64,000 bases of DNA from assembly GCF_009914755.1 (NCBI RefSeq), contig NC_060935.1, one strand, 5' to 3'. This DNA comes from the human T2T-CHM13v2.0 reference genome, Homo sapiens. Positions 4,746-11,400 of the stretch are shown piece by piece; position 1 is the stretch's first letter; every line of letters starts with the position of its first letter. The translations under genes and the position numbers were made by a program. The notes under the pieces are model-generated. The model made no database searches and was not told where the DNA came from. It worked only from the letters and a program-made list of their open reading frames with translations.

Positions 4746-7516
4746 AACATGGTGCCGTCACAATTTTTTGTTGTTGTTGTTTTTGAGACAGAGTTTCGCT
4801 CTTGTTGCCCAGGCTCAACCTCTACCTCCCTGGTTCAAGTAATTCTCCCGCCTCAGCCTCTCAAGTAGCTGGGATTACAGGCATGCACCACCACACCCAG
4901 CTAATTTTGTATTTTTAGTAGAGACAGGGTTTCTATCTCTGCTAACACGTGAAACCCCATCTCTACTAAATATACAAAAAAAAAAAAAAATTAGCTGGGC
5001 GTGGTGGCAGACACCTGTAGTCCCAGCTACTTGTGAGGCTGAGGCAGGAGAATGGCATGAACCTGGGAGGCGGAGCTTGCAGTGAGCCGAGATCATGCCA
5101 CTGCACTCCAGCCTGGGCAACAGAGCAAGACTCTGTCTCCAAAAAAAAGAAAAGAAAAGAAAAGAAAAGTCTGTAACTGGAGAAGTGACCATGGGGCTTC
5201 ATGTTCAAGTTGGGCAGAACAAGGAGGGTGGCTCCCTGTTTCTCAACAGGCATTGAGGAACGCAAGGTGAATTTTGGCTTTTCTGGAAGTGGAGCAGGCA
5301 TTTTTACCCTCAGGAGAGGTGCATGGAAGCAGAAACAGCAGGTCAAAGCAAGGGGCCACAATCTGAATGGAGCCAAATTCACAGCTGAGTCAACAGTCCA
5401 AACCTAGCGCTTCCATCTACAGAGCTGGCAACGGAGAATTGGAAACAAAGGCTAGAAATAGAAAGGTAGCAGAGAAAGCAGGTACGCTGCTGTGCAAGAA
5501 GTGGAAAAGATAGTAAGTGAGAGGGAAACTTCTGGAACCGGCATGTAGTTAAGGGGATTGGTTTGGGAATCAATCCAAATGTCTCTCTCAGGGTGAGATC
5601 AAAGAAATAGTTTGTAATACATCCATACAATGGAATACCGTGCGGCTGTAAGAAAGAATGAGATAGAGCTGCCTGCAGTGACATGGAACAATGCCCATGC
5701 TACTTTATTAAGAAAAGAAATTAGGCCAGGCACAGTGGCTCATGCCTGTAATCCCAGCACTTTTGGAGGCCGAGGCGGGTGGATCACGAGGTCAGGAGAT
5801 CGAGACCCATCCTGGCTAACACGGTGAAACCCCCTCTCTACTAAAAACACAAAAGAAATTAGCCGGGAGTGGTGGCGGGCGACTGCAGTCCCAGCTACTC
5901 GGGAGGCTGAGGCAGGAGAATGGCGTGAACCCTGGAGACAGCGCTTGCAGTGAGCCGAGATAGGGCCACTGCACTCCAGCCTGGGTGACAGAGCAAGACT
6001 CCCGTCTCAAAAAAAAGAAAAGAAATTATGGAAGAGTAATAATTATGTGTGTGGGGAGAGATGAAGTAGATATGATTTTATAAATAGGCAAATATAAAAG
6101 CATACACTCAGAATTATTAACAGCAGTTTTGTCTGTGGTAACTTTTAATTTTGTAAGTGTCTGAATTGTTAGAAACGTTTTGTTTTGTTTTGTTTTGTTA
6201 GACAGAGTTTTGCTCTTGTTGCCCAGGCTGGAGTGCAATGGCACGATCTCGGCTCACTGCAAACTCCACCTCCTGGGTTCAAGCGATTCTCCTGCCTCAG
6301 CCTCCCGAGTAGTTGGGATTACAGGCATGTGCCACCATGTCCACCTAATTTTTGTATTTTTGGTAGAGACGGGGTTTCACCATGTTGGCCAGGCTGGTCT
6401 TGAACTCCTGACCTCAGGTGATCCATCCACTTGGGTCTCCCAAAGTGCTGGGATTACAGGCGTGAGCCACCACGCCCAGCCAGAAAAGTTTTACAAAGCA
6501 CGTATATGACATTGTAGCAATAACTTTGAAAGAATCATTTAATTTTTTTTTAGACAGGGTCTTGTTCTGTCGCCCAGGCTGGAGTGCAGTGGTGTGATCA
6601 CGGCTCACTCCAGCCTCGAACTCCTAGGCTCAAGCAATCCTCCCACCTCAGCCTCTTGAGTAGCTGGGACTGCAGGCATGAGCCACCAAGCCTGGCTAAT
6701 TTTTTTTATTTTTTGTGGAAACGGGGTTTTACCATGTTGTCCAGGCTGCTCTCAAACTCCTGGGCTCAAACAATCCCCCTGTCTCAGCCTCCCAAAGTGC
6801 TGGGATTACAGGCATGAGCCACTGCACCCAGGAAAAGAATAATTTTAAAGATCCTTAGAAAAATGATTGAATGGACCAATTTAGAATATCTATGAGGACT
6901 CATCAAATGTTTCTATTCTACTCGAAGAAGCTTTGTATTCCTCGGCCTGCCAGGATCTGCAAATAGGGTGTGAGCCTGAGGTTTGGGGATTTTGTGTCTC
7001 AACACTTATTTGGATCTCATCTCTGTCTTCATCTCTGATCCCCATCCACCTCCTCATACCAGTTAAAGACTGAAGGGAAGAGGAAGAGAAGAGGGTCGTT
7101 AGTGGAAGGGTACTGTGCATGAGGGCTCTCTAGTGAGGTTCCTGGGAAGGTCCAGTCCCTGGAGAGCTGGGCAGGAAACAGCCCATGTGAATGAGTCAGG
7201 GCTGGTGAGAAAGGGAATCAGTGAAGAAGGTGGGGATACAGTGGGAGCAGGAACCCCCACAGCTCCCTCACTCATGGCTGCCAAACCTGTGCCCTTCTCC
7301 GGAGAGGACTACTGTATTTGTAGGAAATAAGGGACAAAGTTCAGCCTGTGGTCCGTTCTTACTTACAAAGCATCAACAGCCCCACGTAAAGGGTGTGCCA
7401 CAACATAATTCTCAAAATGGTAGAACTGTCATTCTCACACAAATACACAGTGAGAACCTTCACAAGATAACTGTCAGGATGACAAAGTTGGTTCAAAGAA
7501 TGATTTGAGAAACTGG

Positions 7517-7543
7517 TGTGTGTGTGTGTGTGTGTGTGTGTGT
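7517..7543. repeat. (TG)n microsatellite
   Basis: Read directly. Confidence 0.95.
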
Positions 7544-8416: not shown

Positions 8417-11400
8417 AGACCATTACCTTTGGGGTTATCATTATCATCTCATTCACATCTCTACCAGACAAAAACCCTTTGCATCTTATCCATTTTTGAC
8501 AGGTCAACATCTGACATTACAGACTCTGAGCCCTAATCTAGAAAAATAAGAAAGAGAAAATTCTATTCCTCTAGAATAGCATTTCTCAACCAAGATTCCA
8601 AAGAAAGGACTGAGCCCTAATTTGCCCAGCGCATTATTTGTTGATAATCAATCAACTTCTCTCCTCTGAAACTAGAGTGGTGCTAGTTGTGTACTATCTG
8701 TGGGAGAGTTGAGAAAATAGTCCCTCCAACCATTTTCTGTGTCCCAAGAACGGAGTGACCCTGATTTCTCAGAATTCTTTTGCCCTGTTTCCAAGTTTTG
8801 GATAATTTTTCTTTTTTTCTTTTCTTTTCTTTTTTTTTGAGACAGTCTCACTCTGTTGCCCAGGCTGGAGTGCAGTGGCGCAATCTCGGCCCACTGCAAC
8901 CTCCACCACCTGGGTTCAAGCAATCCCCCCACCTCAGCCTCCCAAGTAGCTGGTACTACAGTCGTGCACCAGCATGCCTGGCTAATTTTTGTATTTTTAG
9001 TAGAGATGGGGTTTTGCTATGTTGGCCAGGTTGACCTCGAACTCCTGACCTCAAGTGATCTGCCCACCTCAGCCTCCCAAAGTGCTGGATTACAGGCATG
9101 AGCCACCATGCCCAGCCGAAAAATTTCTCTTAAGAAGGAAAACTAAAGGTGTTTAGTTTTTCACACTCTATAATGTGAGAGAGTTCAGCTACAGCAACTT
9201 GTACCTTCAGTATTAGAGGACTCAACTAGGAAAAAACCTGATAAAAATGCTCTGAGTACAGGAAGAGCTTTAGTGAGAACTTGTACCTCATTCAACATCA
9301 GGAAATTCACAGGGGAGAGAAGCCATGTGCACCTACAACATGAGGGAAGAGGGATTCTGTGGGTTCAACTCTCCTCAGTCACCAGAAGGAAAGGTCCTTG
9401 TTACGGAGAAATCCTAGACCTGCTCCCAGTGGGAAGAGAACTGAATTCACAACCTTACACTGATTGAATATCTCAACATCCACACTAGGGAGAAATTCCG
9501 CAAACATCCTGATTAAGTCAGTTTCAGCTCCAGCTTCAGCAGGCAGGGGAGACTTCACAAAGCAGACATCATTTAAATGTGCAGAGTGCAGGAATGGCTT
9601 TGGCCAGAGAGCTATTATAGATGGCTGAAGGAGGTAGACCCACAAGCTGGGAAAACCTCTCCACTGGGGCTTTTTCACCCTGGAACTTTGGCCCACAAAG
9701 CATCGTACTCTTGCAGCTGTACCCAGAATATTCCCTTTGCTGTCTGCTTCAGGTTAGCCCCTGGTGTGTGTCAATAATTTGTAAGGGTTAATAAAGAACT
9801 GTTGGGTCAAACAGACCTGGTCCACATCCTGGCTCTGTCACTTACTGGCTTTGTGATATTAGGTAGATCAATTAATTTCTCTGAGCCTCATTTTAACTTG
9901 TTTAAGATGGGATTAATATAGCACCTACTTCATAGGTGATGAGAATTAGTGAGAGGATGAATGTAAATGCATGGTGAGCACTCAGTGAATTAGGTTGCTT
10001 TCCACCACCTTCTTTTCCTTTGGCTGACCCATTTCCCAGAATCCACAAGCTCATAGTCCCTTTGAGCCCACCAGCTTGAGCACTGGGGATGGAGAAACGT
10101 TGTTTTGTGTGCAGCTGTTCAAACGATGGCTCTGATGTTATATAACTTTCCCATGGTTTAGGAGGTTCCCAAGTGGCTTCAGAGAATAAAGCACAAAGCT
10201 GGGGAAGACTCTTTCTGGGTCTTGTCCAAGGACCCCCGAGGAGACACACAAATATTCTCCTGTTTCTGTCCTTGGTCAGTCCCTTAGAGTAGCAGTTCTG
10301 GTGCTAGCAGCAAACTTTCCTGAATGCTCCAAACACAGCCAGAGGATAGGCCTGCAGTGAGATGACGATAGAACATGATAGCTATATTAGGTCATCAGAG
10401 ACAACCTGTTTGTTTTGCAGATGAGGCAGAGTTATCAGATTTAGCAAAAATACAAAATGCCAATTATATTTGAATTTCAGATACACAACAATGACAACAA
10501 AATTTATTTTACCATAAGTATATTCCAATGTAAGCATTTTTACCATAAGTATATCCCAATGTAAGTTGTTTTTTTTTTTTTTTTTAGAGACAGCAAGTGT
10601 CTTACTCTGTTGCCCAGGCTGGAGTGCAGTGGCATGATCAATGCTAACTGCAGCCTTGAACTCCTGGGCTCAAGGGATCCTCCTGCCTCAGTCTCCTAAA
10701 AGGCTGGGATTACAGGTATGAACCCCCAGGCCTGCCTACTTCGTGTGTTTTATCTGGCAATGCTGAGAGGACAGCTAGATGTCGAGGACAGCCAGATTTC
10801 GAGGACAGCCAGACGTCAAGGGGGAAAGCAACTTGCTGGCTCACACAGCCAGCCAGGTCTATTGTGGAGCCCTAGTCGCAAACACATACACCCCAGCTTT
10901 CAAGTTTTTAAATATTTATTTAGTTAGTTATTTGTTTTTTGAGACAGTCTTGCTCTGTCACCCAGGCTGGAGTGCAGTGGTGCAATTTCAGCTCACTGCA
11001 ACCTCTGCCTCCCAGATTCAAGTGATTGTGCCTCAGCCTCCCTAGTAGCTGGGACTACATGTGCGCGCCTGCACTGCCCAGCTAATTTTTGTACTTTTAG
11101 CGGAAACGGGGTTTCCCCATATTGGCCAGAGTGGTCTCAAACTCCTGACCTCAAGTGATCCACCCACCTCGGCCTCCCAAAGTGCTGGGATTACAGGCGT
11201 GAGCCACCGTGCCCGGCTAGCTTTTTTTTTTTTTTTTTTTTTTAATTAGGTTGAATGCTTGTTGAGCTGGGTGCCTCACATCCGTTGTCTGTTATACAAA
11301 GAACTACTGATTATGGGTCTCTACGAGCAAAAATGGCAGAACACCTACAGGGCACAGGGGAGATGGGAGCAGGGATTAGGCTTCAGAATACTTCTCCAAA

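What the first reader, a model, noticed from the sequence alone, without database searches (positions are those of the whole stretch)
7298..9613. Fossil C2H2 zinc-finger gene hidden 2-4.5 kb upstream of SERPING1
Seen: two fingers keep exact C-x2-C-x3-F-x5-L-x2-H-x3-H spacing with the second Cys mutated (CRK*GTKFSLWSVLTKHQQPH after removing a CTTA duplication; [21 protein letters not shown] followed by the linker RGEKP). Further remnants (IHTREKF, FKCAECRNGF) lie on the same strand. The array is split by (TG)n, an LTR and Alus, so it predates them, and the ORF track misses it. Inference: a lost Kruppel-type ZNF gene, possibly a unitary pseudogene; an acceptor-like site near 7062 could mark the start of its finger exon.
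Basis: partly seen in the sequence, partly recalled or inferred. Interest (0 to 1): 0.7.

Follow-up and report, generated by a model that had tools for sequence, protein, structure and literature searches.

The report
Ancient dead KRAB zinc-finger gene
Just upstream of human SERPING1 lie the broken remains of a KRAB zinc-finger gene that RefSeq does not annotate, and matching fingers at the same locus in opossum suggest it was likely lost early in placental mammal evolution.

Summary
A DNA profile of live human fingers finds six fingers in a row at 9172-9609 (163 bits) and one at 7299-7385 (30 bits; next best in 84 kb 24.6). None of the seven keeps all four zinc ligands. A decayed KRAB-A exon lies on the same strand 14 kb upstream, outside the window (E 8.8e-7), with intron-like flanks, so a retrocopy is unlikely. 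The gap in the array holds the LTR and Alus plus two much older repeats. Decay is about 0.3 substitutions per site, roughly 100-190 million years at a recalled rate. Published supplements place an opossum two-finger model inside the Ensembl gene ID of opossum SERPING1, same strand. Its DNA-contact residues (VSSI, HTTK) match fossil fingers 4-5 (VSTS, HLTE); 6 of 2709 control pairs match as well. Verdict: a real, likely unitary KRAB-ZNF pseudogene of therian age, likely lost early on the placental line. Not shown: that the marsupial gene is whole, or any function today. A new member of a known kind.

The parts
7020..7062 (+). Pyrimidine tract and AG: candidate acceptor of the finger exon, unproven. 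The upstream exon it would join is the decayed KRAB-A exon that lies before the window (chr11:57,529,212-57,529,331; L047:3212-3331; window places -6788..-6669, + strand; 40 codons, one stop)
   Evidence: Acceptor: sequence; its phase does not fit finger 1 without a frameshift. KRAB exon: nhmmer with 26 human KRAB exons 23.7 bits, E 8.8e-7 in 84 kb, reversed control best E 0.91; best of 30 shuffles 10.5 bits; Pfam KRAB E 0.085, below cut-off; the match runs past the donor into intron-like bases
7063..7298 (+). Purine-rich stretch before finger 1: candidate spacer of the finger exon
   Evidence: position only; best z about 3 against 30 ZNF loci, not convincing
7299..7385 (+). Finger 1 with upstream linker; second Cys is a stop, 4-base duplication; most like the first fingers of ZNF629 and of a related chr19 gene
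   Evidence: 30.2 bits; top 2 of 3245 distinct fingers
7392..8578 (.). Old dispersed repeat, family not identified, inserted right after finger 1 and itself interrupted by (TG)n and the LTR
   Evidence: 63% over 338 columns to a chr1 copy once young inserts are left out; that copy has 22 other matches, 68-88% identical
7516..7544 (.). (TG)n microsatellite, 14.5 copies
7605..8416 (+). Solo LTR with a 4-base target-site duplication (AGAC), carrying an Alu at about 7842-8166 (MER39-like by recall only)
   Evidence: ends and TSD; 39 other copies at 81-88% among 40 scored of 1208 candidates; Alu TSD
8580..8765 (.). Miniature DNA transposon with terminal inverted repeats at a CTCTAGAA site (hAT/Charlie type, MER112/113-like, by recall only)
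   Evidence: 11 other copies at 69-79%; 33 of 157 sites differ from the majority of those copies; alignment
8806..9118 (-). Alu
   Evidence: sequence, matches to Alus in other loci, flanks
9172..9609 (+). Six tandem degenerate fingers: F2 9172-9236, F3 9237-9322, F4 9323-9411, F5 9412-9495, F6 9496-9568, F7 9569-9609; F4 and F5 match the opossum model
   Evidence: 162.7 bits, 84-base register; nhmmer E 5e-18 and 1e-8 with a partly circular profile; codon register
9610..9671 (+). Possible end of F7 and a last linker; not significant
   Evidence: 14.3 bits, within the null range

Best explanation
This is the dead remnant of a KRAB-C2H2 zinc-finger gene between UBE2L6 and SERPING1, with at least seven broken fingers and, likely part of the same gene, a broken KRAB-A exon 14 kb upstream; it is likely the orthologue of an opossum zinc-finger reading frame at the SERPING1 locus and was likely lost before or early in the placental radiation. 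How it worked (inferred from the family, recalled): the spliced gene made a repressor whose fingers read a DNA site and whose KRAB box recruited TRIM28/KAP1. It may have been driven from the CpG island at the 5' end of UBE2L6, which faces the other way (position only). How it died (order shown by nesting, timing inferred): point mutations and small indels removed zinc ligands in every finger; an old repeat entered after finger 1; a miniature DNA transposon landed at its end; much later an LTR entered the old repeat, and Alus entered the LTR and the flank. It has no coding function now.
For: Finger array far above controls. KRAB-A exon on the same strand with intron-like flanks; it is the only significant KRAB hit in 84 kb and this is the only array. 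0 of 7 fingers keep all four ligands. 48 of 176 near-invariant sites differ against 3% expected, d 0.31 (0.22-0.43). The inserted miniature transposon is 21% from its family majority. No colinear paralogue for the array, finger 1 or the KRAB exon. Opossum model ZF01569_1 (monDom5 chr5:291,806,431-291,806,736, +) lies between opossum ZNF408 and ZFP91 in the human order and strand and carries ENSMODG00000020104, which is SERPING1 (the neighbouring IDs ...100...101...102 are SLC43A3, SLC43A1, TIMM10). Its fingerprints match F4-F5 at 4 of 8 residues, 5 base changes at least; 6 of 2709 control pairs do as well against any of four fossil pairs. HTTK occurs twice in the whole eight-species table, both times in opossum.
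Against: I never saw the opossum DNA or protein, only a table row with eight residues. That model has just two fingers in 306 bases and no KRAB, so it may be truncated, decayed or limited by the draft assembly; the authors say their sets include pseudogenes. No orthologous protein was found (1 candidate, none significant; 150 listed of 10144, best single stretches about 50% identical and generic). No other placental genome could be read, so the date rests on decay and a recalled rate. The decay figure is biased upward if the live gene already had non-canonical fingers. A GT follows the last His of finger 1, so an intron there cannot be excluded; the inserted repeats would then not date the loss. 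Linking the KRAB exon to the array is inference from strand and distance. No KRAB-B exon was found (weak 8-sequence profile).
Confidence: 0.75

Rival explanations
1. Same gene, later loss: it stayed intact in some placentals (elephants, armadillos, perhaps laurasiatherians) and died separately on the line to primates.
For: The lower bound of decay, 0.22 per site, is near the depth of the placental radiation at a recalled rate. The estimate is biased upward. A possible donor after finger 1 would free the old repeats from dating the loss.
Against: Central decay 0.31, and 36 of 96 conserved KRAB sites also differ. No mouse, dog or human model has HTTK, or VSSI followed by a similar finger, in the eight-species table (2 of 2 and 19 of 19 rows seen). 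No close protein.
Confidence: 0.12
2. A duplicated (unprocessed) pseudogene or retrocopy of a ZNF gene elsewhere, unrelated to the opossum model, that never worked at this site.
For: KRAB-ZNF genes duplicate often (recalled). Finger 1 is most like the first fingers of ZNF629 and a chr19 gene. The DNA search skips common words and is not sensitive at this age.
Against: No colinear match: best 40 bases for the array. Later fingers do not follow ZNF629 in order. The KRAB exon is 14 kb away with intron-like flanks, which excludes a simple retrocopy. Synteny and fingerprint both agree with opossum.
Confidence: 0.06
3. Separate relics: the 3' array is real, but finger 1 and/or the KRAB exon are chance matches or remains of another gene.
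For: Finger 1 is marginal alone (E 0.05-0.09; no ZNF hit). The KRAB remnant is below the Pfam cut-off. The opossum model includes neither.
Against: Finger 1 is the best site in 84 kb after the array, on the same strand, and separated from it almost only by repeats. KRAB scores 23.7 bits against a shuffle maximum of 10.5.
Confidence: 0.05
4. Chance resemblance of repeat-rich DNA to zinc fingers.
For: No Pfam family passes its cut-off.
Against: 162.7 bits against nulls under 25, an 84-base period over 440 bases, one strand only.
Confidence: 0.01

Closest known systems
KRAB-C2H2 zinc-finger genes (KZFPs; Pfam PF01352 plus tandem C2H2)
   Same: KRAB-A exon upstream of a tandem array with 28-residue period and TGEKP-type linkers, same strand
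   Different: Every finger and the KRAB box are broken; no KRAB-B or SCAN exon detected; solitary, not in a ZNF cluster within the 84 kb scanned
Opossum model ZF01569_1 of Liu et al. 2014 (PMC3971581, supplements), at ENSMODG00000020104/SERPING1
   Same: Same locus and strand; adjacent fingerprints VSSI, HTTK against VSTS, HLTE
   Different: Open frame with two fingers and no KRAB in the model; listed there as opossum-only because no human counterpart was known
ZNF629 (L030, identified by its fingerprint row) and a related chr19 gene (L028; ZNF787 by recall)
   Same: Their first fingers are the two best matches to fossil finger 1 among 3245; W at helix +1 occurs in 13 of 3426 fingers
   Different: Later fingers are not colinear; those genes lack KRAB in human (ZNF629 is listed as finger-only; the other recalled)
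Human unitary pseudogenes (Zhang et al. 2010, PMC2864566, passages read)
   Same: Disabled single-copy gene in synteny with a counterpart in another mammal
   Different: That catalogue uses mouse proteins as reference and covers losses after the rodent split; this one appears older and needs a marsupial reference

Membership tests
Kruppel-type tandem C2H2 array | Tandem 28-residue (84-base) units with C-x2-C-x12-H-x3-H spacing and TGEKP-type linkers | tested here: met
   Six units in register at 9172-9609 and one at 7299-7385
Kruppel-type tandem C2H2 array | Intact zinc ligands and a Pfam zf-C2H2 score above cut-off | tested here: not met
   0 of 7 fingers keep all four ligands; no zf-C2H2 hit in 11 translations. 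Expected of a fossil: it is a pseudogene of the family, not a working member
KRAB-ZNF gene | KRAB-A exon 5' of the array on the same strand | tested here: met
   E 8.8e-7 by DNA profile, shuffles; Pfam E 0.085, below cut-off
KRAB-ZNF gene | KRAB-B exon (optional in the family) | tested here: inconclusive
   No hit with an 8-sequence profile
KRAB-ZNF gene | KRAB exon spliced to the finger exon; TRIM28 recruitment | not testable with these tools
   No transcript or protein; inferred from the family
SCAN-ZNF gene | SCAN exon upstream | tested here: not met
   None of 73 genome-wide PF02023 matches lies here; a 20-exon DNA profile gives nothing better than E 0.04 in 84 kb, and that hit is far downstream
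Unitary pseudogene | Disabled, with no functional parent or close paralogue in the same genome | tested here: met
   Stops and frameshifts; no colinear match, within the limited sensitivity of that search
Unitary pseudogene | Syntenic counterpart in another species | tested here: met
   Opossum model on the SERPING1 gene ID with matching fingerprints; table rows only
Unitary pseudogene | That counterpart is a functional gene | tested here: inconclusive
   Only two fingers in a 306-base model; in simulation two tandem fingers stayed intact in 30 of 20000 runs at d 0.2, suggesting long constraint, but the paper's 'intact' is an HMMER match without a stop
Processed pseudogene (retrocopy) | Exons joined without introns, colinear with a parent mRNA | tested here: not met
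   KRAB exon 14 kb from the array with intron-like flanks; no parent
ZNF629/ZNF787-like subfamily | Shared finger sequence in the same order along the array | tested here: inconclusive
   Finger 1 matches strongly, later fingers are not colinear

The most novel reading that the evidence does not exclude
A full KRAB zinc-finger repressor of an old ZNF629-like type is still active in marsupials between UBE2L6 and SERPING1, shares the UBE2L6 CpG-island promoter and is therefore interferon-induced; placental mammals lost it on their stem, and its human corpse has stayed readable for well over 100 million years.
Probability: 0.12. Interest if true: 0.7.

Novelty: new member of a known kind. Interest (0 to 1): 0.45.

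Why it matters
It gives a human counterpart to a zinc-finger model published as opossum-only. Some 'marsupial-specific' KRAB-ZNF genes may therefore be therian genes that placentals lost, not marsupial inventions. [quoted passage not shown] Mouse-referenced searches for unitary pseudogenes would miss such a loss, while DNA-level finger and KRAB profiles find it, which makes a genome-wide census directly doable. There is no sign that it matters for SERPING1 regulation or hereditary angioedema; the hub table lists no functional element here.

Tried and rejected
Pfam scan of 11 translations: no finger family at cut-off. A whole-region Pfam scan of upstream frames gave no result, so domains other than KRAB-A, KRAB-B and SCAN (for example DUF3669) are untested upstream. 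SCAN exon: not found. KRAB-B: not found, weak profile. A linker exon before the KRAB box, as in SCAN-KRAB genes: no support against 5 such genes, and that stretch partly matches a dispersed repeat. A KRAB-like hit at 1471-1518 (E 0.27) was rejected as part of an LTR-like repeat (family recalled). Orthologous protein: none. The top genome hit on chr8 (L004) is a short frameshifted fragment, not a parent. A ZNF-SERPING1 fusion protein, suggested by the opossum overlap: none of 120 listed of 243 hits or 20 of 20 longer hits, including possum and tammar, has a finger or KRAB domain; 0 of 132 by motif; their N-terminal extension matches SERPING1 exon 1 best, weakly (E 0.15). An eighth finger after 9610: not significant. 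Ten literature searches (listings only) showed no paper on this locus. Huntley et al. 2006, whose catalogue and supplements may list it, and Pace and Feschotte 2007 were not held. GENCODE could not be checked.
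Full report
Observation. The quoted motifs are all present on the + strand at the stated places. Protein-level Pfam does not pass: no zf-C2H2 hit in 11 translations, and zf-H2C2_2 only at E 0.05. Searching the genome with the frame 9137-9625 gave 318 matches (150 of 2532 candidates scored), best non-self E 3.0e-6; 27 of the 30 non-self loci examined yielded canonical fingers. A DNA profile from those 178 fingers gave E 5e-18 and 1e-8 over 9174-9613 and E 0.05-0.07 at 7303-7383. 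That training set had been chosen by likeness to the query, so I rebuilt it without the 37 fingers under the matches. The 141-finger circular profile aligned six fingers in 84-base register at 9172-9609 (162.7 bits) and one at 7299-7385 (30.2 bits); 144 random windows reached 19.8 at most. Across 84 kb on both strands (558 chunks each) finger 1 ranks directly after the array, the next site scores 24.6 and reversed sequence 23.9. None of the seven fingers keeps all four ligands.

The gap. Between finger 1 and finger 2 almost everything is repeat. The LTR spans 7605-8416 with an AGAC duplication, is 81-88% identical to 39 other copies (40 scored of 1208) and holds an Alu. It sits inside an older element that runs from about 7392 to 8578: 63% over 338 columns to a chr1 copy, which has 22 other matches at 68-88%. 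A miniature transposon with inverted ends follows at about 8580-8765 (11 other copies at 69-79%), 33 of 157 sites from their majority. An Alu ends at 9118. Family names for these repeats are recalled and come from no call.

The missing exon. A profile of 26 human KRAB-A exons run over 20 kb upstream plus the window gave one significant hit, at -6757..-6653 on the + strand (before the window; chr11:57.529 Mb), E 8.8e-7; the reversed control's best was E 0.91 and 30 shuffles reached 10.5 bits against 23.7. In register it reads as 40 codons with one stop, and Pfam KRAB is the only hit in that frame (E 0.085, below cut-off). The match continues past the donor into intron-like bases, so this is a genomic exon. 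No SCAN or KRAB-B exon (weak profile) was found. A CpG island lies at about -18.5 to -17.5 kb, at the 5' end of UBE2L6 on the other strand; a shared promoter is inference from position only.

No parent. DNA searches found no colinear paralogue: 40 bases in a chr9 ZNF for the array, only the old repeat for the finger 1 region, and only an upstream repeat-like stretch for the KRAB region. These searches are not very sensitive at this age. Finger 1 is most like the first fingers of L028 and L030, the top 2 of 3245. L030 is ZNF629 by its fingerprint row; L028 is ZNF787 by recall. Later fingers do not follow these genes in order, so this is a lead only.

Age. At the 29 profile columns over 90% conserved, 48 of 176 fossil bases differ, against 3% expected; the likelihood estimate is 0.31 substitutions per site (0.22-0.43). 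At a recalled neutral rate near 2.2e-9 per site per year that is roughly 100-190 million years. It is biased upward if the live gene had non-canonical fingers. The inserted transposon (0.25 corrected) points to a similar depth if the exon was continuous; a GT after the last His of finger 1 leaves an intron possible.

The opossum link. Liu et al. 2014 (PMC3971581; I saw passages, the first part of Methods and supplement rows) list opossum ZNF408 at chr5:283.7 Mb and ZFP91 at 293.7 Mb. Between them, in the ID range I searched, there is one model: ZF01569_1, chr5:291,806,431-291,806,736, +, two fingers, classed opossum-only, annotated ENSMODG00000020104. Minus-strand models were checked only for 291.5-292.1 Mb. 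Supplement rows of two other papers name that ID SERPING1 (PMC4051688) and its neighbours SLC43A3, SLC43A1 and TIMM10 (PMC5012577), the human order. The model's fingerprints are VSSI and HTTK. Fossil F4 and F5 read VSTS and HLTE: 4 of 8 identical, at least 5 base changes, while the other three fossil pairs score 0-1 of 8. Six of 2709 control pairs (1 of 271 human) match any fossil pair as well. No mouse, dog or human row carries HTTK (2 of 2 seen) or VSSI followed by such a finger (19 of 19 seen).

Limits. I saw eight residues and coordinates, not the opossum sequence. The model has two fingers and no KRAB; it may be a short live gene, an assembly artefact or a later pseudogene. A simulation suggests two tandem fingers rarely survive neutral decay (30 of 20000 at d 0.2), which favours long constraint in marsupials. 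Protein searches found no orthologue and no ZNF-serpin fusion.

Mechanism. Shown: a broken KRAB exon, a broken finger array, nested insertions, and synteny by gene ID. Inferred: that the two exons formed one gene; that it encoded a TRIM28-recruiting repressor (family knowledge, recalled); that it used the UBE2L6 island; and that it died on or near the placental stem.

Novelty. RefSeq has no row here (hub table). Ten full-text searches showed no paper on the locus (listings only). GENCODE and the Huntley 2006 catalogue could not be seen and may list a fragment. Zhang et al. 2010 (passages) use mouse as reference and would miss a loss of this age. ZNF pseudogenes are common, so this is a new member of a known kind, made more interesting by its age and its marsupial counterpart. 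Interest 0.45.

Noticed in passing
window 10767-10821 and 10507-10565: A 17-base unit in 3.2 copies and a 31-base near-perfect duplication lie 1.0-1.4 kb upstream of the SERPING1 start.
   Followed up: no
window 7605-8416: The solo LTR, 3.4-4.3 kb upstream of SERPING1, carries a palindromic element near 7730-7750 that resembles an RFX X-box (recalled); a possible regulatory input to SERPING1.
   Followed up: no
P0272, P0273 (possum and tammar C1 inhibitor, isoform X2): The first 73 residues, including a 53-residue extension, are identical in the two species while the following region diverges; the best human match is SERPING1 exon 1, weakly. Strong constraint or a model artefact.
   Followed up: partly
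L004:1340-1830 (G000:C8, about 56.0 Mb): An isolated, frameshifted fragment of about five Kruppel fingers between L1-like and Alu sequence; looks like a truncated ZNF retrocopy.
   Followed up: partly
G000:C12:43968478, C1:21854314, C23:133669110, C6:28187360-28187618, C6:27962585-27977947, C1:40320459: SCAN-domain matches with internal stops, probably SCAN pseudogenes.
   Followed up: no
L047:2929-3064 (window -7071..-6936): A stretch just upstream of the KRAB remnant is 72% identical to a chr15 site; probably another old dispersed repeat.
   Followed up: partly
L046:1500-2500 (window about -18500..-17500): CpG island at the UBE2L6 5' end, the only strong one in the 33 kb scanned upstream of SERPING1 exon 2.
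   Followed up: partly
opossum monDom5 chr5:291.8 Mb: The Ensembl SERPING1 gene span overlaps the zinc-finger model, whereas the human fingers end 2.2 kb before SERPING1 exon 1; this may reflect read-through transcripts in opossum or a stretched gene model.
   Followed up: partly
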